DNA of 64,000 bases from a virus (lineage: Duplodnaviria > Caudoviricetes). How positions within the stretch are numbered: the first letter of the stretch is position 1; the number at the start of each line of letters is the position of its first letter. The position numbers and the translations under genes are program-made. The notes below the pieces were generated by a model, which saw only the letters and a program-made list of their open reading frames with translations, was not told the DNA's origin and ran no database searches. The stretch lies in IMG/VR virus record IMGVR_UViG_3300015607_004593, positions 1 through 64,000 of that record, one strand, 5' to 3'. Below are positions 1-63,634 of the stretch, piece after piece.

Positions 1-456
1 AGAAAGAAGATTTGACCAATCCAATCCATCTAATTTTTCCCAAAAAGAACAAAAAGATGATAATTGAGGTTGTTTTGAAAGAAGATTTGACCAATCTTCA
101 CCATCTAATTTATCCCAATAAGAACAATATTTTGAAAATTGAGGTTGTTTAGAAAGAAGGTATGACCAATTTTCACCATTCAATTTTTCCCAAGATAAAC
201 AATGTTCTGAAAATTGAGGTTGTTTAGAAAGAAGGTATGACCAATTTTCACCATTCAATCTTTCCCATGGACAATCATCTATGAATTGAAAATAACCCCT
301 TTCTAAACACCAAACCCTATATTCTAAAGGAATTTCTTCTAAGATAGATTCAAGTGACTCCTGTTCACTTGCCCAAAATAAACCTCCTTTACAAGCTCTA
401 TCTTTTTTAGCTTGAGAAAGTAATTCTTCTTTTGAAGAAAAAACAAAGGTATTCAT
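1..456 (-). CDS. Trp-rich 24-aa repeat protein, paralog C (3' end runs off the window; not in ORF track)
   Basis: Manual translation from ATG at 456: MNTFVFSSKEELLSQAKKDRACKGGLFWASEQESLESILEEIPLEYRVWCLERGYFQFIDDCPWERLNGENWSYLLSKQPQFSEHC...; AGGAG Shine-Dalgarno upstream. Confidence 0.9.
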   Translation of the reverse strand, partial: MNTFVFSSKEELLSQAKKDRACKGGLFWASEQESLESILEEIPLEYRVWCLERGYFQFIDDCPWERLNGENWSYLLSKQPQFSEHCLSWEKLNGENWSYLLSKQPQFSKYCSYWDKLDGEDWSNLLSKQPQLSSFCSFWEKLDGLDWSNLLS

Positions 457-492
457 TTTATTTCTCCTAATTAAACAATTAAAGGTTTAAAC

Positions 493-530
493 AAAAATCC
501 TATCTCATTTAAGAGATAGGGATTAAAAAA
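493..530 (-). terminator. Probable intrinsic terminator
   Basis: ATCCTATCTC/GAGATAGGGAT hairpin flanked by A tracts, just after the stop of 535..1086. Confidence 0.6.
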
Positions 531-534
531 TAAC

Positions 535-1086
535 TTATTTCCTGAATTTTTCAAGCTGAGGTTGGAAATTAATCAGATACATCCAATCATCTTTATTCAA
601 TTTTTCCCATGGGCATTTATCTGAAAATTGAGGATTCTCAGAAAGTAGATAAGCCCAATCCTCACCATTCAATTTATCCCATGAACAAACTTCTGAGAAA
701 CGAGATTGTTTAGAAAGTAATTTTACCCAATCCCAACCATCTAATTTTTCCCAAAGACATCTATCTGAAAATTGAGGTTGTTGAGAAAGAAGATTTGACC
801 AATCTTCACCACTTAACTTTTCCCATGCACAATAAGAAGAAAGATGAGGATGTTCAAAAATTAATAAAACCCAACCATATCCATTGAATCTTTTCCAATC
901 GCAATCCTTTTCAAATTGAGAGTATCCTCTTTTCAAACACCATCGCCTATAGTGAAAGGGTAAATCTTTAAAAACAACATTCAAAGAACTTTGATTTTTT
1001 ACCCACATCAATCCACCTCGGCAAGCTCCATCTTTCTTAGCTTTATTCAAAAGTTCATCTATAGATGAAAAAACAAAGGTAGTCAT
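535..1086 (-). CDS. Trp-rich 24-aa repeat protein, paralog B2 (5 repeats)
   Basis: Family N-terminal domain plus WxKLxGxxWxxLLSxQPQFSxxC repeats; start reassigned to MTTFVFSS (ATG 1086, AGGA SD) by comparison with paralogs. Confidence 0.9.
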   Translation of the reverse strand: MTTFVFSSIDELLNKAKKDGACRGGLMWVKNQSSLNVVFKDLPFHYRRWCLKRGYSQFEKDCDWKRFNGYGWVLLIFEHPHLSSYCAWEKLSGEDWSNLLSQQPQFSDRCLWEKLDGWDWVKLLSKQSRFSEVCSWDKLNGEDWAYLLSENPQFSDKCPWEKLNKDDWMYLINFQPQLEKFRK

Positions 1087-1099
1087 TTTTAATCCTATC

Positions 1100-1585
1100 C
1101 TACTTTTTGAATGTTTCAAATTGAGGTTGATGTATAAGTAAATATTTCCAATCGTTATTGTTTAATTTTTCCCATTTACAAAATTCAAAAAATTGAGGTT
1201 GGCGTGTAAGTAAATATCTCCAATCCCCACCGTCTAATTTTTCCCATGAACACATATTTGAATATTTTGGATGTTTAGAAAGAATATATGCCCAATGCCA
1301 TCCATCTAAATTTTCTAATGAGCAAAGATTTAACAATTGAGGTTGTTTTGAAAGAAGGATTGACCAATCATATTCATCTAACTTTTCCCAAGGACAATCA
1401 TTTAAGAATTGAAAATAACCTTTTCTTAAACACCACAGTCTATAATCTAAGGGAATTTCTTTTAGAATTGTTTCTAAAGAATCTTTCTCCTTAGCCCAAA
1501 GTAAACCATATACACAAGCTTCATCTTTCTTTGCTTGTTCTAAGAGTTCTTCTTTTGAAGAAAAAACAAATCCTTCATTATTCAT
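1100..1585 (-). CDS. Trp-rich 24-aa repeat protein, paralog A2 (4 repeats)
   Basis: Same architecture; blocks near-identical to 1612..2529. Confidence 0.9.
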   Translation of the reverse strand: MNNEGFVFSSKEELLEQAKKDEACVYGLLWAKEKDSLETILKEIPLDYRLWCLRKGYFQFLNDCPWEKLDEYDWSILLSKQPQLLNLCSLENLDGWHWAYILSKHPKYSNMCSWEKLDGGDWRYLLTRQPQFFEFCKWEKLNNNDWKYLLIHQPQFETFKK

Positions 1586-1611
1586 GATTTACACCTTTAA
1601 AAAAAGAAAAC

Positions 1612-2529
1612 TTATTTCCTGAATGTTTCAAATTGAGGTTGATGTATAAGTAAATATCTCCAATCATTACCATCTAACTTTTCCCATTTACAAAACTCTG
1701 AAAATTGAGGTTGGCGTGTAAGTAAATATCTCCAATCATTACCATCTAACTTTTCCCATTTACAAAACTCTGAAAATTGAGGTTGGCGTGTAAGTAAATA
1801 TCTCCAATCCCCACCGTCTAATTTTTCCCATGAACACATATTTGAATATTTTGGATGTTTAGAAAGAAGATAAACCCAATCCAACCCATTCAATTCTTTC
1901 CAAGGATATTTACATATAAACTGAGGTTGAAAATAAAAAAGAACTGCCCAATCACCCCAATATAAGGTTTCCCAAAGACATCTATCAGAAAATTGAGGTT
2001 GTTTAGAAAGAAGGATTGACCAATCAAATCCTTTTAATTTTTCCCAAGGGCATATATTTGAAAATTGAGGTTGATGTGAAAGAAGATTTGCCCAATTCCA
2101 TCCATCTAAATTTTCTAATGGACAAAGATTTAACAATTGAGGTTGATGTGAAAGAAGATATGCCCAATGCCATCCATCTAAATTTTCTAATGAGCAAAGA
2201 TTTAACAATTGAGGTTGTTTTGAAAGAATATATGCCCAATACCATCCATCTAATTTTTCTAAAGGGCAAAGATTTAACAATTGAGGTTGAGAGGAAAGAA
2301 GAATTGCCCAATCCAATCTATCTAATTCTTCCCACACACAATCATCTAGGAATTGATAATAACCTTGTTTTAAACACCATATTCTATATTCTAAAGAAAT
2401 TTCTTTTAGGATTGTTTCTAAAGAGTTTTGTTTCTTAGCCCAATTCAAACCTTTTTTACAAGCTCCATCTTTTATAGATTGTTTTAAGAGTTCTTCTTTT
2501 GAAGAAAAAACAAATCCATCATTGTTCAT
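1612..2529 (-). CDS. Trp-rich 24-aa repeat protein, paralog A1 (10 repeats)
   Basis: Ten 24-aa units; exact 72-bp tandem duplication visible at 1651/1723. Confidence 0.9.
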   Translation of the reverse strand: MNNDGFVFSSKEELLKQSIKDGACKKGLNWAKKQNSLETILKEISLEYRIWCLKQGYYQFLDDCVWEELDRLDWAILLSSQPQLLNLCPLEKLDGWYWAYILSKQPQLLNLCSLENLDGWHWAYLLSHQPQLLNLCPLENLDGWNWANLLSHQPQFSNICPWEKLKGFDWSILLSKQPQFSDRCLWETLYWGDWAVLFYFQPQFICKYPWKELNGLDWVYLLSKHPKYSNMCSWEKLDGGDWRYLLTRQPQFSEFCKWEKLDGNDWRYLLTRQPQFSEFCKWEKLDGNDWRYLLIHQPQFETFRK

Positions 2530-2555
2530 GATTTACACCTTTAAAAAAAGAAAAC

Positions 2556-3257
2556 TTATTTCCTGAATTTTTCAAATTGTGGTTGAGAAGAAAGAAGGAT
2601 TGACCAATCCAATCTTTCTAATTTTTCCCAAGGACATCTATCAGAGAATTGAGGTTGTTTTGAAAGAAGGATTGACCAATCACATCCATCTAATTGTTCC
2701 CAACATGAACAAAATTCTGAAAATTGTGGTTGTTCAGAAAGAAATATTACCCAATCCCATCTATCTAATTTCTTCCAATGACATCTATCAGAGAGTTGAG
2801 GTTGTTTTGAAAGTAAACTTTCCCAATCTTCACCATCTAATTTATCCCAAAAACAAAACTCTGAGAATTGAGGTTGTTTCTGAAGAAGTAAACTCCAATT
2901 CCAACCATCTAATTTATTCCAATAACAAAAATCAGAGAATTGAGGTTGTTTCTGAAGAAGTAAACTCCAATTCCAACCATCTAATTTATCCCAATAAGAA
3001 CAAAAAAAAGAAAATTGAGGTTTCTCTTGAAGAAGTAAACTCCAATCCTCACCATCTAATTGTTCCCAATCGCAATTTTTCTCAAATTGATAATATCCTT
3101 TTTTTAAACACCATACTCTATATTTTAAAGGAATTTCCTTTAGAATTGTTTCTAAAGAATCTTGTTCTTTTATCCATTCAAAACTTTTATTACAAACTCC
3201 ATCTTTTTCAGATTGTTCTAAGAGTTCATCTATAGATGAAAAAACAAAGGTAGTCAT
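2556..3257 (-). CDS. Trp-rich 24-aa repeat protein, paralog B1 (7 repeats)
   Basis: Same architecture; start reassigned to MTTFVFSS (ATG 3257). Confidence 0.9.
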   Translation of the reverse strand: MTTFVFSSIDELLEQSEKDGVCNKSFEWIKEQDSLETILKEIPLKYRVWCLKKGYYQFEKNCDWEQLDGEDWSLLLQEKPQFSFFCSYWDKLDGWNWSLLLQKQPQFSDFCYWNKLDGWNWSLLLQKQPQFSEFCFWDKLDGEDWESLLSKQPQLSDRCHWKKLDRWDWVIFLSEQPQFSEFCSCWEQLDGCDWSILLSKQPQFSDRCPWEKLERLDWSILLSSQPQFEKFRK

Positions 3258-3333
3258 TTTTAATCCTATCCTACTTTTTGAATGTTTCAAATTGAGGTTG
3301 TAAGGAATATTATAGTCTGAAACAAGTATTATT

Positions 3334-5037
3334 TTATCTACAAGTAAAATTATTTTCTTGCATAAACTTCAAAGGAGATAAAAGATGGACGATAACATCA
3401 ACAGTCCACCCATTTCCTAATTGCCGATATTTTTCTTTTTCATTAACTCCATCAACATTAACAAAATAATCTTCAGGAACAGTTTGGAGACGACAACATT
3501 CTTTTACTGTCAACTTTCTGAAACCTGTTTCTTGTGTATTATCAATAATTAATTGACCAACAGACCTATTTTTATAATGATTTACACAACTTTTTGAATT
3601 ATTCTTTTCAGAATAAGAAGCAAGAAGAGTCACAGCTTTTGTTCTTTCTGAATGTCCATATTCTAAAATGTCATTAAGTTCAATATTATTATCGTCAATA
3701 TAATCAATAAAAGGTATGTTTGTCCAATAGTATCTTGATCTTAATTGTGCAGATACTTTTGCAGAATTTATCTTCTTTGGTTTTACTCCTAATTCATTTG
3801 AAATAATATCTTCATATTCTTTCTTCATCTTCACATTTTCTAAAAGAAAATAAGATGGTTTACACTCATGTAACAATCGAACATATTCAAAAAATAATTT
3901 ACTCCGATGATCATTAAAATTTAATTGGTTTCCCATAAAGGAAAATCCCTGACAATTATGGACAATTAAATTATTAACGATATATGAATTATCTTCTTCT
4001 ACTTCGATGTTATAAACATCATTAATTCCATTTTCAATAAATGATTTACTTTTAGTTAAATTATATGAAATGTAATTATCGTTACATTCAAATTTACTTG
4101 ATTTGTTTTGATCTTCAGAATAAGTTATTTCATAAGAATTCCTTTGATTAACAATTCTTCCTTTTATTACAGTTTTAGCATTTCTTTTTGTATAGCAGAT
4201 AGAAACACCTTCAAAACATTTTTGAATAGCTAATGCTAAAGTTAATGTTAATTTCTCACTAACTTTAGCATTTCTTTTATAAACATTCTGACCTAATGAA
4301 TTCTTTCTTACATGCCCATCACAATCCATATATCCATTGATGAATTTAATTAAACGATTTACAGGTAAATCTAAGATAAAATTAGGAATGAATTTATTGT
4401 GGGCAAGATGACCAAATTTTTCACCTAGTTCAACCCATTTTTTTCTATTAATAAAAGCATTGAAAACTGTTTTATCTTCAATATAAGAAAATCTATCATC
4501 TACTTTACTTTTGAAGTCGTCTATTTTATGTTTATCTTTTGTTATATAAGGTTGAACTGAACAATGCCAATAAAGTCCGTTATATTCTATTGCAAGATTA
4601 TGATTAGGGATGTAAATATCTAATTCTTTTGAACCTGATAAAATTTTTCTTGTTTTTTCAGAATTGCTATCAAGATATGTTTTACAAAAATCTTTAATTT
4701 CTTTTTCTTCTTTTGATTCTCTTGTGTTTGAGAATGAAGGCGGATAATTTGTTCCATATCTAGTTTGACAAGTTTTTATTTTCCTTTCTATTTGAGATTG
4801 ACTACCAAATGAACTTTCTCTCCCATATCTATAATCTAGTATAGATTGATTAGGTTTTAAGATTTTAAAGTCATTAAGAATTCTAATAAGAGTTGGATGA
4901 AAAATACCATAAAAATCTGCTATCTCTTGAGAAGTTAATGATATGTCTTTTAACTTAGTTTCTAATTCTTCTCTATCAAAAGAATTTAAAGAGATTTTAT
5001 TATGTGCAATTCTATCTCTTTTTTTATTTTATATTTT
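3334..5037 (-). pseudogene. Fusion reading frame: truncated Hef/Vsr-like endonuclease + C-terminal half of a LAGLIDADG intein + C-terminal part of a C5-cytosine DNA methyltransferase
   Basis: Frame of ORF 3334..4329 stays open to about 5037. It contains ELDIYIPNHNLAIEYNGLYWH, then KFIPNFILDLP...FINGYMDCDG, VYNIEVEEDNSYIVNNLIVHN|CQGFS, ENV, Q-x-R-x-R and RQLGNGW. MTase motif I and the intein N-terminus are absent. Confidence 0.75.
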
Positions 5038-5642: not shown

Positions 5643-7004
5643 TTAGATTAAATTTAAAACTTTGAACTTTCTGTAGTAAACATTAGCACCGGCGGATAAT
5701 GACGTGAAAGGATTTGCTACAAATCCGTAACGGGTCTTAAATCCAATTGCTGGTTGGAAAGTAGTAGGATTAATTGACCTAACTAACTCTAAAGGAATAT
5801 ATGGACAGAAGAAAGCACCTGAATCATAAGCAGAATTGCCCTTATACCCTAAAGTAATATAGTCATAAGTACCAGTCCAATACGGGTCAATATAAACCTT
5901 ATAACGCCCGGCTAAAGTTCCAGCAAAGATATTTCCTGAATCATCAACTTCTAAATTGCCTTGCATTGCTGGTGCATAATCTAAGATTTGAGCCATGGCA
6001 AGTGCAGAAGCAACGTCAGAAGTACAAACAATGAAATTTGCTTTACCTCTTCTTGTTTCACGAGCAATAATATTTGCTTCACGTTCGATATGGAACATCA
6101 AACCTTTCCATTTCTCAACAGACCAACGACCATCGGAATCCGTATCAGCATCAAAGATACCTTTATAATCGGCTTTAGATTGCATACCGACTTTTGCGGC
6201 TCTAATAATTGAATAAAGAATTTCGCGATTAATTTCTAATGAGATTTCAGTAGAAAGAATATTTGTTAATTCTGATTCTACAGACATTCCTCTCATTTGT
6301 TTCAGGTCTTGTTCTAATTCAGTCGTATAATCGGCTCTTAATGCTCTTGATTTTGCAGTAACAGTGGTACGATCAATGGTGAAAGACATTTGACCAAATG
6401 CAGGGCCACCAGCTCCACCCCAATTTTCAGCATTAGTATTTCCAGCCGTATTTGCACCAAATCCAACTGCACCGAGAGTATTGTCATAAGTATCAATACC
6501 AACGCCGGGGTTGAACGTGGTTGAATTAGCTATAATGTTGTTATTAGAACCGGCTGAAAACATATCAGTGACTTGATCAGTACCAGGAAGTCCCGGCCCA
6601 CCTTGACCTTTACCTGAGTATTCAGTTCGTGGTGCATTGAAAAGAGCTTCGTCCCAATTTGCTCTTAAAGGATCATCAGCATATTGTGAACGCATTGCAA
6701 AGATTTGACCAACTGGGCCATTCATTGGTTGAACTGAACAAATGTCATAAGCAATGACAGAAGGCATAGTTCTACGAATAAGATTAATTAAAACAGGTTC
6801 CCAATTATTAATACCACCTGATGAAATAGAAGTTAGAGGAGCCGCCTCAGTTAAAAACGTCTGTTGAGTATTTTCTAATAAAACCCCGGTAACTTCTCTA
6901 CGATAATCATCTCTAATCTTTGGAAAAGCAGTATTATCAAGAATAGGTGCCCACTTTTTATCTTGTGTTTCAGTTAAATAAACCTTCATTGGTATTTTCT
7001 CCAT
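5643..7004 (-). CDS. gp23: Major capsid protein (T4 gp23-like)
   Basis: KWAPIL, LLEN, RRTMPSVIAYDICSVQPMNGPVGQIFAMR, TAKSRALRADYTTELEQDLK, FQPAIGFKTRYG. Confidence 0.98.
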   Translation of the reverse strand: MEKIPMKVYLTETQDKKWAPILDNTAFPKIRDDYRREVTGVLLENTQQTFLTEAAPLTSISSGGINNWEPVLINLIRRTMPSVIAYDICSVQPMNGPVGQIFAMRSQYADDPLRANWDEALFNAPRTEYSGKGQGGPGLPGTDQVTDMFSAGSNNNIIANSTTFNPGVGIDTYDNTLGAVGFGANTAGNTNAENWGGAGGPAFGQMSFTIDRTTVTAKSRALRADYTTELEQDLKQMRGMSVESELTNILSTEISLEINREILYSIIRAAKVGMQSKADYKGIFDADTDSDGRWSVEKWKGLMFHIEREANIIARETRRGKANFIVCTSDVASALAMAQILDYAPAMQGNLEVDDSGNIFAGTLAGRYKVYIDPYWTGTYDYITLGYKGNSAYDSGAFFCPYIPLELVRSINPTTFQPAIGFKTRYGFVANPFTSLSAGANVYYRKFKVLNLI

Positions 7005-7087: not shown

Positions 7088-8059
7088 TTATCTCATTTTC
7101 AGCATAGCATCTAAATAAGCCTGAATTTTTGGGTCTACATCGCCAGATTCTTTTTCTTGTGTAATGCTTGCCTTTCCTTCATTTAATTGCGTTTGAGATA
7201 TATTTTCTCTTGAAGAAGAATTTGAAGAAGCTGGGACTGTTAAAGATTCTTTCAAAAGGTGAATCTGATTCTTAAATTCTTCTGTAGTCTTAGCCTTTAC
7301 TGTTTCAGAAAGAGTTTGTAATCTTTCTTTATCAATATCCGTTAAATCTCTTGATTCTTCTTCAATAATTAATCTCTTATTCAAATCAGAAACTTTCTTA
7401 GAAAGAGTCTTAACCTTTGTATTTAAATCTACATTTGATTCATAAAGAGATTTTGACTTATCTTCTAATTCAGTAATAAGATTGATGTTATCTTGAGGAA
7501 CATCAATATAATTAGATTCAAATAATCTCTTAAGACCTAAAAGAACTGAATCTGAAATCTGATTCTTAACTCCACTCTCAATTCCAATCTTATTCTCTTC
7601 AACCCACTCATTAATAACATAATCAAGATAAGAATCTAAACGATCTTCCATTTCATCAATTTTCTGTTCTGAAATAAGTTCTAATTCTTGTCTCACATAA
7701 TCAGCATAGGAATCTACAGATTGTTGACTTTCCGTTAAGAATTTATCAACTTTATCCGTCAATCCTTTAACTTGTTCAGATACTTTATTATTGACTGAAG
7801 AATTAAAGATAACTTGAAGTTTTTCTTTTACTTCTTCTGTCAATAATTCATTTCCTGAATCTGAAGCAATTGTTTCAGATATAAGATTTGAATGGTCTAA
7901 AGTATCTGTAGTTTCTACTTCATAGTTCTCTGTGATAAGATGATTTTCTAATTTAGAAAAATTTTCCTCATCAAGAAGTTGAATAAATCTTGTTAAATCA
8001 TTCTTCTTTTTAATAAATTCTAATTGATCCATGTTTCCCTCTTTCCTTCCTTTTTTCAT
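7088..8059 (-). CDS. gp22: Prohead core scaffold protein (gp22-like); start may be Met at 8032
   Basis: LDSYLDYVINEWVEENKIGIE, GLKRLFESNYIDVP; position between gp21 and gp23. Confidence 0.92.
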   Translation of the reverse strand: MKKGRKEGNMDQLEFIKKKNDLTRFIQLLDEENFSKLENHLITENYEVETTDTLDHSNLISETIASDSGNELLTEEVKEKLQVIFNSSVNNKVSEQVKGLTDKVDKFLTESQQSVDSYADYVRQELELISEQKIDEMEDRLDSYLDYVINEWVEENKIGIESGVKNQISDSVLLGLKRLFESNYIDVPQDNINLITELEDKSKSLYESNVDLNTKVKTLSKKVSDLNKRLIIEEESRDLTDIDKERLQTLSETVKAKTTEEFKNQIHLLKESLTVPASSNSSSRENISQTQLNEGKASITQEKESGDVDPKIQAYLDAMLKMR

Positions 8060-25619: not shown

Positions 25620-25675
25620 CAAAAAAACCCTCACAAATCTATGTGAGGGTTTAAGAACAAAATTTTATTTTTTTC
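25620..25675 (-). terminator. Terminator/repeat copy 1 (paired with 26253..26310)
   Basis: AAACCCTCACA...TGTGAGGGTTTAAGAACAA hairpin duplicated on both sides of the 25677..26156 cassette. Confidence 0.8.
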
Positions 25676-25676
25676 T

Positions 25677-26156
25677 TTACCTGAATATTTCAAATTGTGG
25701 TTGTTTAGAAAGAAGGTATGTCCAATCTAAAACAATCAATTTTTTCCAATCACAATATTCTGAAAATTGGGGCTGATAATAAAGAAGATTTGACCAATCC
25801 CATCCATCTAAGTTTTCCCAGTAAGAACAAAACTTTGATAATTGAGGTTGTTCAGAAAGAAGAATTGACCAATTAAATCCACTCAATTTACCCCAAATAC
25901 AAAACTCTGAAAACTGGGGTTGAGATGAAAGAAGATTTGACCAATACCATCCATCTAATTCTTCCCACACACAATCATCTAGGAATTGATAATAACCTTG
26001 TTTTAAACACCATATCCTATATTTTATAGGAATTTCTTTTAGAATAGATTCTAAAGAATCTTTATCATTAGCCCAAAGTAAACCTTCTTCACAAGCTCTA
26101 TCTTTTTCGGCTTGTTCTAAGAGTTCTTCTTTTGAAGAAAAGACGAAGGTAGACAT
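25677..26156 (-). CDS. Trp-rich 24-aa repeat protein, dispersed paralog (4 repeats)
   Basis: Family N-terminal domain and repeats; 63 bp identical to 2320..2382. Confidence 0.9.
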   Translation of the reverse strand: MSTFVFSSKEELLEQAEKDRACEEGLLWANDKDSLESILKEIPIKYRIWCLKQGYYQFLDDCVWEELDGWYWSNLLSSQPQFSEFCIWGKLSGFNWSILLSEQPQLSKFCSYWENLDGWDWSNLLYYQPQFSEYCDWKKLIVLDWTYLLSKQPQFEIFR

Positions 26157-26187: not shown

Positions 26188-26216
26188 ATTATACGAAAAT
26201 TCCTAAAACGACTCAA
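26188..26216 (-). promoter_or_regulatory. Sigma70-type early promoter
   Basis: TTGAGT-N17-TATAAT. Confidence 0.7.
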
Positions 26217-26252: not shown

Positions 26253-26310
26253 CAAAAAAAAAACCCTCACAGAAATTTGTGAGGGTTTAAGAACAATGAA
26301 ATTTTATTTT
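26253..26310 (-). terminator. Terminator/repeat copy 2
   Basis: AAACCCTCACA...TGTGAGGGTTTAAGAACAA. Confidence 0.8.
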
Positions 26311-62821: not shown

Positions 62822-63634
62822 TTAGTCTAAAGAAAAGTATTCAGTAAAATCATCTTCACTCATCTTTGTCCAATCAGTAAAGATTGAAAGTTGAGGTTGT
62901 TTTTGAAGAATAAGTTTCCAATCTTCACCATTTAATTTATCCCAATTACATAATTCAGAAAATTGAGGTTGTTTTTGAAGAAGTATACACCAATCATAAC
63001 CACTTATACTCTCCCAATTTGAAAAGAAAGAAGAGAATTGAGGATTGTTGGAAAGAATATGCACCCAATGAATATCAGACAATGTTTCTTTTCTACAAAA
63101 AGGAAAGAAGTCAGGATGTGCTTTAAGTAGGTCAATCCAATAACATCCCTTTATTTGTTTCCAATTACAATAAACATTAAACTTAGGTTGTTTTATTAGA
63201 AGTTCAACCCAATGCCAAGGGTTTAATGTATCCCAATTGCAATGAATATGCAAATGAGGTTGTTCAGTTAATAATTTCAACCAATCAGAACCTTCAAAAT
63301 AATTCCAATGTTTGAATTTTTTACTTAGATGTGGTTGGTGTACAAATAACGTTGCATAATTTTCACCTACACCTATACTCCAAAAATCAGGGTTGTATTG
63401 TTCACATTGAACAATATATTGAGGTTTTTCAGAAAGCAACATTATCCAATTCCAATGAGAAAAATCTTTCCATGGGCAATTTTTCTCAAAAAGAGAATAA
63501 TCATTACAAAGACACCAAACTCTAAAATCTAAAGGCATCTCTTCAGTCAACAACATCTCTAAAGGTTTTTCTCCTTCTTCTTTAGAAGAAGAGGTAGAAT
63601 TTTCAAACAATTTTTGAAAGGTTGAATTAGTCAT
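62822..63634 (-). CDS. Trp-rich 24-aa repeat protein, divergent paralog (~8-9 repeats)
   Basis: EMPLDFRVWCL then W..L.G.DW..LL.KQPQFS..C repeats. Confidence 0.85.
   Translation of the reverse strand: MTNSTFQKLFENSTSSSKEEGEKPLEMLLTEEMPLDFRVWCLCNDYSLFEKNCPWKDFSHWNWIMLLSEKPQYIVQCEQYNPDFWSIGVGENYATLFVHQPHLSKKFKHWNYFEGSDWLKLLTEQPHLHIHCNWDTLNPWHWVELLIKQPKFNVYCNWKQIKGCYWIDLLKAHPDFFPFCRKETLSDIHWVHILSNNPQFSSFFSNWESISGYDWCILLQKQPQFSELCNWDKLNGEDWKLILQKQPQLSIFTDWTKMSEDDFTEYFSLD

What the first reader, a model, noticed from the sequence alone, without database searches (positions are those of the whole stretch)
1..3300. Expanded family of variable 24-aa Trp-repeat proteins: a candidate phage repertoire of modular binders
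Seen: five tandem paralogs here (the array runs off the window) plus copies at 25677 and 62822. Most have a conserved ~63-aa cap (FVFSS.EELL..A.KD.AC..GL.W....SLE.IL.EIPL.YR.WCL..GY.QF; only its second half is kept at 62822), then 4-10 units of W-E-K-L-D-G-x-x-W-x-x-L-L-x-x-Q-P-Q-F-S-x-x-C-x, and usually a terminal QPQFE.FRK cap. Framework residues are nearly fixed. Positions 7/8, 10/11 and 14/15 vary most; that spacing places them on one side of an alpha helix. Repeat number also varies (5, 4, 10, 7, 4, ~9). Inference: a capped helical solenoid with a diversifying binding surface, analogous in logic to ankyrin, VLR or TALE arrays. The 25677 copy has its own early promoter, so host defence proteins or nucleic acids are plausible targets. 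I cannot assign the repeat to a named family.
Basis: partly seen in the sequence, partly recalled or inferred. Interest (0 to 1): 0.88.

Follow-up and report, generated by a model that had tools for sequence, protein, structure and literature searches.

The report
Phage binder library from immune-sensor repeat
A large wastewater phage keeps about 20 shuffled, fast-evolving copies of a small helical repeat protein whose repeat is otherwise the sensor tail of NLR-like immune receptors in some bacteria; this looks like a variable library of protein binders, most likely aimed at host defences, but no target is known.

Summary
Observation confirmed. Sister assemblies extend the array to about 18 genes, with whole-unit gains and losses, mosaic tracts, pseudogenes and NAD-salvage (NARP2-like) genes just beyond it. 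AlphaFold gives a confident alpha-solenoid; Pfam, PHROG, NCBIfam, PADLOC and PDB do not name it. New here: the same 24-aa repeat is the C-terminal, sensor-position domain of TIR- or Schlafen-NB-ARC NLR-like proteins in Lentisphaeria and Kiritimatiellae, and varies there at the same positions. Best reading: a recombination-diversified repertoire of intracellular protein binders on an NLR-sensor scaffold, probably anti-defence (0.45). A simple decoy of the host's own sensor is weaker, because phage ArfA points to a beta/gamma-proteobacterial host and the repeat was found mainly in Verrucomicrobiota. Nucleic-acid reading is unlikely (mostly acidic proteins). No target, host or expression is shown. 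The scan's notes hold this family only on this same stretch, not on other DNA.

The parts
2556..3257 (-). Paralog 1, 233 aa, cap + 7 units (209 aa, 6 units, in sister assemblies L001, L002, L007)
   Evidence: model
1612..2529 (-). Paralog 2, 305 aa, cap + 10 units
1100..1585 (-). Paralog 3, 161 aa, cap + 4 units; shares a 96-nt identical tract with paralog 2
535..1086 (-). Paralog 4, 183 aa from the ATG at 1086, cap + 5 units
1..456 (-). Paralog 5, cut by the contig end; 186 or 210 aa in sister assemblies, where the array runs on for 13 more family genes
3223..3300 (-). Recombination scar: 78 nt identical to 1052-1129, i.e. the last codons and stop of a lost paralog plus the start of paralog 1
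497..523 (-). Intergenic hairpin with T-run, then a Shine-Dalgarno site; variants recur between most array genes in sister assemblies
25677..26156 (-). Dispersed paralog, 159 aa, cap + 4 units
26188..26216 (-). Sigma70-like promoter site of the dispersed copy (10 of 12 consensus matches; function not shown)
26261..26288 (-). Terminator-like hairpin upstream of the promoter
25625..25652 (-). Near-identical terminator-like hairpin after the gene, followed by the next promoter-like site (PeSL-like cassette)
62822..63634 (-). Diverged dispersed paralog, 270 aa, half cap, about 8-9 partly degenerate units
5643..7004 (-). Context: T4-type major capsid protein gp23; the array lies downstream, after an HNH-like gene and a C5 DNA methylase (3334-4329)

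Best explanation
The array is a diversifying repertoire of intracellular protein binders. Each gene is a phage-type cap plus 2-10 units of a 24-aa helical repeat that stack into an alpha-solenoid (modelled). W1, L4, W9, L12, L13, P17, F19 and C23 hold the fold; positions 7, 11 and 15 line up as a stripe on the outer side of helix A (inferred from helix geometry) and form a tunable surface. Unequal crossing-over and gene conversion between near-identical units, caps and spacers change unit number, swap units and add or lose genes (shown), and point changes at the stripe are favoured (estimated). The same scaffold and stripe occupy the sensor position of bacterial NB-ARC NLR-like proteins (shown), so it is a recognition module. 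Without an ATPase or effector the phage proteins can bind but not signal. Made from host-type promoters (inferred), they most likely bind and block host defence proteins that differ among host strains (inferred; no target identified).
For: AF2 pLDDT 95.9, regular two-helix repeats. HMM from the seven window proteins alone hits 1548 clusters, top hits E 1e-268 to 1e-115, many of them TIR/Schlafen-STAND-repeat proteins; 25 of 144 listed representatives carry the STAND region; its fold matches Apaf-1 and plant NB-ARC, E 5e-10; one lies among TIR-STING, TIR-Sel1 and NACHT genes. Inside single NLRs the framework is fixed and 7/10/11/15 carry 2.6-2.9 bits. 60-63% of residues at 7 and 11 are aromatic, aliphatic or Cys. 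Allelic unit gain/loss, identical tracts up to 113 nt inside different genes, alleles of one gene that differ by whole units, a nonsense allele and a frameshift. Array size is 2 in a related phage (capsid 87% identical), 5 in another, about 18 here. NadM-Nudix + NAMPT genes follow the array in both related phages; NARP2 is a known counter-defence (10.1101/2024.02.11.579819).
Against: No target, host or expression is shown. The bacterial carriers are not shown to defend or to sense through this repeat. Most bacterial carriers are stand-alone repeat proteins, not NLRs, and the STAND share is inflated by ranking on score. Omega depends on the model: a simpler count gave only 1.1-1.2 at 7/11/15, sites were chosen after seeing the data, units recombine, and only 12 null runs were made. 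NARP2 neighbourhood may only mark a variable region.
Confidence: 0.45

Rival explanations
1. Binder repertoire, but for host takeover or host range: the targets are housekeeping proteins (polymerase, ribosome, chaperones) that vary among host strains.
For: Same structural and selection evidence. The phage carries other takeover-type genes: ArfA, an H-NS-like gene, an ADP-ribosyltransferase. The repeat is also fused to sigma-region-2-like, sigma54-activator and kinase domains, so it is a general scaffold.
Against: Conserved housekeeping targets do not readily explain about 20 paralogs with fast turnover; the bacterial context is rich in defence domains.
Confidence: 0.15
2. Sensor mimic: the proteins act on a host NLR that has this same repeat, either by masking the phage protein it senses or by jamming the receptor as a dominant-negative fragment.
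For: Same repeat and same variable stripe as the NLR tail; phage units are on average 15 of 23 identical to the best NLR unit; NAD-salvage neighbours fit a TIR effector; the array lies next to gp23, a known STAND trigger (PMC13581612).
Against: The phage encodes ArfA, limited to beta/gamma-proteobacteria (PMC6881298) and not found in four repeat-bearing PVC genomes. The repeat was found in 47 of 301 Verrucomicrobiota, 1 of 301 Bacillota and no plasmid. None of 80 other gp23 loci has it. Proteobacterial genomes could not be searched.
Confidence: 0.13
3. Phage-against-phage weapon: like the bacterial sensor, the proteins bind core proteins of competing phages or satellites and block them.
For: STAND sensors bind conserved phage proteins (PMC13581612); a binder of that origin would be pre-adapted; diversity would track competitors.
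Against: No effector is attached or adjacent; pure sequestration needs high amounts; no direct evidence.
Confidence: 0.1
4. Largely neutral accordion: a dispensable repeat gene amplified by recombination in a hyperplastic region, with variable positions merely being unconstrained surface.
For: Pseudogenes and scars; PeSL-like cassettes drive shuffling in T4-type phages (PMC2839356); simple counts give omega near 1 at the stripe; only 2 copies in a related phage.
Against: Framework under strong purifying selection (omega 0.15) across about 20 genes; ML omega 1.7-2.1 at the stripe while other exposed sites give about 1; parallel arrays in unrelated phages.
Confidence: 0.12
5. TALE/PPR-like reader of DNA or RNA, one base per unit.
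For: Tandem near-identical units; the best Foldseek rows are designed PPR proteins, but at E 0.1 and TM 0.3.
Against: Most paralogs are acidic, pI 4.4-6.5, net charge down to -13; three or more positions vary freely rather than a small code; many genes have only 2-5 units.
Confidence: 0.04

Closest known systems
Bacterial NLR-like antiviral STAND proteins (Avs; Lee et al. 2026, PMC13581612)
   Same: The bacterial carriers have effector (TIR, Schlafen/AlbA_2) + NB-ARC-type STAND + helical-repeat tail; the phage proteins consist of that tail repeat.
   Different: The phage proteins lack ATPase and effector. The 24-aa repeat is not TPR, WD40 or FGE; the paper's main text does not mention these taxa (supplement not held). 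Defence by these carriers is untested.
Fungal NLRs with high internal conservation (HET-D/HET-E WD40 sensors; PMC12222747)
   Same: Near-identical repeats under concerted evolution, unit gain and loss by unequal crossing-over, a few hypervariable codons under diversifying selection that form the binding face.
   Different: Other fold and kingdom; here the logic runs in a phage multigene array with no signalling domain.
Ankyrin-repeat proteins, including viral ankyrin expansions
   Same: Capped alpha-solenoid of short helix pairs; best structural rows are ankyrins (Z 7.5, rmsd 3.7-3.8). Virus use of ankyrin families against host immunity is recalled from general knowledge.
   Different: 24 against 33 residues, 3-5% identity, no ankyrin motif or Pfam hit; Z under 8 is a generic level for repeats.
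DUF4116 (PF13475) helical repeats
   Same: Closest predicted-structure neighbours among named families: E 6e-4, TM 0.43; TM 0.49-0.50; also found in viruses.
   Different: No sequence hit to PF13475; different consensus; function of DUF4116 itself not established.
PeSL cassettes of T4-type hyperplastic regions (PMC2839356)
   Same: Sigma70-like promoter plus stem-loop terminator units flanking small genes (25677 copy; array spacers) that can mediate shuffling.
   Different: Here recombination also runs inside coding repeats and all shuffled genes are paralogs.
Diversity-generating retroelements
   Same: Produce variable binding proteins in phages.
   Different: No reverse transcriptase motif in the contig and no adenine-specific codon pattern.

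Membership tests
NLR / antiviral STAND (phage proteins themselves) | STAND NTPase domain with Walker A/B | tested here: not met
   No Walker A and no Pfam hit in any phage paralog
NLR / antiviral STAND (phage proteins themselves) | N-terminal effector domain | tested here: not met
   Only a 63-aa helical cap with no family hit
NLR-like STAND (bacterial carriers of the repeat) | Effector + NB-ARC-type STAND + C-terminal repeat architecture | tested here: met
   TIR_2 or SLFN_AlbA_2, AAA_16/NB-ARC, then 12-24 units; profile hits Roq1, AfsR; fold hits Apaf-1, NRC
NLR-like STAND (bacterial carriers of the repeat) | Defence-island context | tested here: inconclusive
   P0053, P0051 and L135 lie among TIR/STAND genes; L024 and L027 lie among housekeeping genes
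NLR-like STAND (bacterial carriers of the repeat) | Ligand-triggered anti-phage activity through the repeat | not testable with these tools
   Needs plating and co-expression assays
HIC repeat sensors (HET-E type logic) | High identity between units with hypervariable codons under diversifying selection | tested here: met
   Phage omega 1.7-2.1 at 7/11/15 against 0.15; NLRs 0.8-3.6 against 0.1-0.3, above 1 significantly in one of five; NLR unit identity 58-76%, below the 80% or more of HET-E
HIC repeat sensors (HET-E type logic) | Unit-number polymorphism by recombination | tested here: met
   233/209 and 210/186 aa alleles; junction tracts of 55 and 63 nt; short-read assemblies only
Ankyrin repeat | 33-aa repeat with ankyrin sequence motif | tested here: not met
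   24-25 aa period, no Pfam or PDB sequence hit
Ankyrin repeat | Ankyrin-like fold | tested here: inconclusive
   Z 7.5, rmsd 3.8 over 198 residues, not above the generic level; no Foldseek hit at E 0.001
DUF4116 | PF13475 HMM match | tested here: not met
   No hit at E 0.1; structural TM 0.43-0.50 only
TALE / PPR nucleic-acid readers | 33-35 aa repeats with a two-residue base code and a basic groove | tested here: not met
   24-aa units, broad variation, mostly acidic pI
Diversity-generating retroelement target | Reverse transcriptase and template repeat nearby | tested here: inconclusive
   No YxDD-type motif in 205 ORFs of the contig, but the genome is incomplete
Diversity-generating retroelement target | Variation confined to adenines of AAY-type codons | tested here: not met
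   Position 7 is mainly TGG, GAA, TTG; position 15 AAA, GAA, TCT
Phage anti-defence protein | Suppresses a defence system | not testable with these tools
   Context only: host-type promoters, NARP2-like neighbours

The most novel reading that the evidence does not exclude
Phages have taken the same repeat that some bacteria use as an NLR sensor, removed the signalling parts, and run it as a germline, recombination-built, antibody-like library against host immune proteins, so that both sides of the arms race evolve the same three-residue stripe on the same scaffold.
Probability: 0.35. Interest if true: 0.92.

Novelty: new variant of a known kind. Interest (0 to 1): 0.76.

Why it matters
Known phage anti-defence proteins are mostly one-off small genes, and the known phage diversity generator (DGR) acts on surface adhesins (general knowledge). 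A multigene, recombination-diversified family of intracellular solenoid binders would be a different strategy, close in logic to fungal HET-E sensors. The finding also defines an unnamed repeat (1548 clusters at 50% identity) as the sensor-position domain of a group of NLR-like proteins in Lentisphaeria and Kiritimatiellae, and names three residues per unit to mutate. That makes sensor specificity testable and offers a small, regular scaffold for protein engineering.

Tried and rejected
Family libraries: no hit in Pfam, PHROGs, PADLOC, NCBIfam or PDB sequences. No match among 50,697 annotated phages or 72,556 plasmids. Foldseek against PDB gave nothing at E 0.001; this does not show a new fold. 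Co-folding of paralog 1 with the phage's own gp23: no answer, counted neither way. Sequencing runs: no RNA holder listed. Laid contigs show one joint that skips genes 1-3 at depth under 4 through the 78-nt repeat, and L005 skips seven family genes through a 58-nt overlap while L003 of the same sample holds several of them: either could be assembly shortcuts, so they were not used. gp23 adjacency is not general: 0 of 80 distant gp23 loci. A capsid-targeting signal was considered: the cap N-terminus does not fit this phage's MKTFKEF-type starts and the cap occurs in non-T4 phages. The cap was found only in front of this repeat, so it is not shown to be a general module. One search was circular (A2 contains NLR segments) and was ignored. 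Literature searches found no description of the family; the Lee et al. supplement was not held.
Full report
Setting. The window is the first 64 kb of a 221,970-base contig of a T4-like phage, GC about 28%, with gp23 at 5643-7004 and gp22 at 7088-8059. The best cultured capsid matches listed are 45-48% identical. Runs that hold it are wastewater metagenomes of at least three studies. The contig is incomplete: it starts inside the array, and the DNA that follows the array in sister assemblies is not in it.

Observation. Unit counts match. Over 70 distinct internal units, W1, L4, W9, L12, L13, P17 and C23 are nearly fixed; the most variable positions are 7, 11, 10, 22, 15 and 21, while 8 and 14 are mostly D and S.

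The array is larger and is turning over. Assemblies 99% identical to the window (L001, L002, L005) continue it. A composite gives 18 family genes of 2 to 10 units, one with a nonsense codon and one frameshifted. Paralog 1 has 7 or 6 units and paralog 5 has 6 or 5 in different assemblies, with junction tracts of 55 and 63 nt. Gene 6 has two alleles that differ by whole units. Eight gene pairs share identical tracts of 60 nt or more, up to 113 nt inside the repeats. The last codons of a lost gene sit in front of paralog 1. All this rests on short-read assemblies; alleles with novel units cannot be collapse artefacts, simple skips can. A related phage (capsid 87% identical) has two capped genes at the same place, another phage five in tandem, and small unrelated phages carry two to four. 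In both T4-like relatives the locus is followed, within 1-3 kb, by NadM-Nudix and NAMPT genes, the make-up of the NARP2 counter-defence pathway (10.1101/2024.02.11.579819; one search gives the pathway's role, the two-enzyme make-up is from memory).

Structure. AlphaFold gives pLDDT 95.9: a four-helix cap, then per unit a short turn, helix A (positions 6-15) and helix B (17-22). Structural searches return ankyrins at a generic Z of 7.5, nothing significant by Foldseek and DUF4116 proteins at TM 0.43-0.50. On a helical wheel the core residues 9, 12, 13, 16 centre on 0 degrees and 7, 11, 14, 15 lie at 140-240 degrees.

Selection. Using the four most variable sites of the window genes as the prior set gives 2.09; a tree built without the tested sites gives 2.79; twelve simulations under omega 1 with 0-100% converted units gave 0.64-1.77. 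A simpler count with extreme local frequencies gave 1.1-1.2. I take diversifying selection as likely, not proven. Codons do not fit a retroelement and no reverse transcriptase motif was found.

What the repeat is. A profile of the seven window proteins alone matches 1548 clusters. Many top matches are 1000-1800-aa proteins with TIR_2 or Schlafen/AlbA_2, an AAA_16/NB-ARC ATPase, and then 12-24 units of the same repeat at the C-terminus; 25 of 144 listed representatives have the STAND region, a share inflated by score ranking. The region matches Roq1 and AfsR by profile and Apaf-1 and NRC proteins by fold. P0053 lies among TIR-STING, TIR-Sel1-FGE and NACHT genes. The C-terminal repeat position is where STAND proteins sense phage proteins (PMC13581612). 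Within one such protein the framework is invariant and 7, 10, 11, 15 are hypervariable, with omega 0.8-3.6 at 7/11/15 against 0.1-0.3. This is the pattern of fungal HET-E sensors (PMC12222747). Named carriers are Lentisphaeria and Kiritimatiellae; 47 of 301 genomes of that phylum match, 26 at E below 1e-28, against 1 of 301 Bacillota. Most bacterial carriers are stand-alone repeat genes, some near restriction- or retron-like genes, some at the locus where a relative has the full NLR. The repeat is also fused to DUF7666, sigma-like, GmrSD, kinase and sigma54-activator domains. The cap was found only with this repeat, and in phage-like contigs wherever context was checked. The direction of transfer was not determined.

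Host. The phage uses sigma70-type promoters (7 upstream against 0.84 by shuffle) and Shine-Dalgarno sites (56 of 169 genes against 8 in a control window), and sigma70-like sites also lie inside the array. It encodes ArfA above the Pfam cut-off, a factor limited to beta- and gamma-proteobacteria (PMC6881298) and not found in four repeat-bearing PVC genomes. The host is therefore more likely a proteobacterium than a Lentisphaeria. I could not search proteobacterial genomes; plasmids, many of them proteobacterial, gave no match. This weakens the neat decoy model and favours a general binder scaffold.

Mechanism. Shown: capped solenoid genes, unit and gene turnover, identity of the repeat with the NLR tail, shared variable stripe. 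Estimated: omega above 1 at the stripe. Inferred: early cytoplasmic expression, protein binding through the stripe, targets among host defence proteins. Mostly acidic paralogs argue against nucleic acids. I give 0.45 to anti-defence binders, 0.15 to takeover binders, 0.13 to a same-repeat mimic, 0.10 to phage-against-phage use, 0.12 to a neutral accordion and 0.04 to a base-reading code; about 0.8 in all that these are variable protein binders.

Verdict. Real, unnamed in the libraries searched, and not found in the papers searched. It works like HET-E-type sensors and viral ankyrin expansions, and is a member of neither. New variant of a known kind; interest 0.76.

Noticed in passing
L005:15412-18478; L142:11303-14179: NadM-Nudix plus NAMPT (NARP2-like) downstream of the array; NAMPT is in two pieces in L005 (166 + 307 aa) but whole in L142. 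Missing from the window's contig.
   Followed up: partly
L024:1696-4815 against L022:7737-9134 and L045:10813-12150: At what looks like the same chromosomal locus one genome has a full TIR-STAND-repeat gene and two relatives have only the repeat part.
   Followed up: partly
L014:807-8524: TIR-STAND gene with two units, then a stand-alone 483-aa repeat gene, then a second STAND-repeat gene: possibly a split or multi-part sensor.
   Followed up: no
L018:6341-6561: A distant T4-like phage (capsid about 35% identical) has an uncapped repeat gene two genes after gp23.
   Followed up: partly
window:35016-35204: ArfA ribosome-rescue factor above the Pfam cut-off; used as a host clue.
   Followed up: yes
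window:38348-38995: Weak H-NS C-terminal domain hit (E 0.003, below cut-off).
   Followed up: partly
window:22952-24922: Alt/ModB-like phage ADP-ribosyltransferase (Pfam ADPrib_exo_Tox, E 7e-7).
   Followed up: no
window:26982-33020: Class II-like ribonucleotide reductase of 2012 aa that appears to carry three inteins.
   Followed up: no
window:3334-4329: C5 DNA methylase ORF preceded by an intein C-terminal remnant; its N-terminal part lies in another frame or is lost.
   Followed up: no
window:60869-61131: Three tRNA genes (Lys, Arg, Met); a fourth (Gly) lies outside the window.
   Followed up: no
P0027, P0028, P0031: Sigma-region-2-like N-terminal domain fused to 2-3 units of the repeat (recognised by eye, not tested).
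   Followed up: no
P0019: DUF7666 phage domain fused to five units of the repeat.
   Followed up: partly
L132:655-3079 (outside the window): ThyX-like gene next to PurM; the same pair occurs on a related phage-like contig beside a weak ROS/MucR hit.
   Followed up: partly
L040:18806-19750: Retron-like reverse transcriptase start seen near stand-alone repeat genes and GmrSD-like genes in a Verrucomicrobiota genome (by eye).
   Followed up: no
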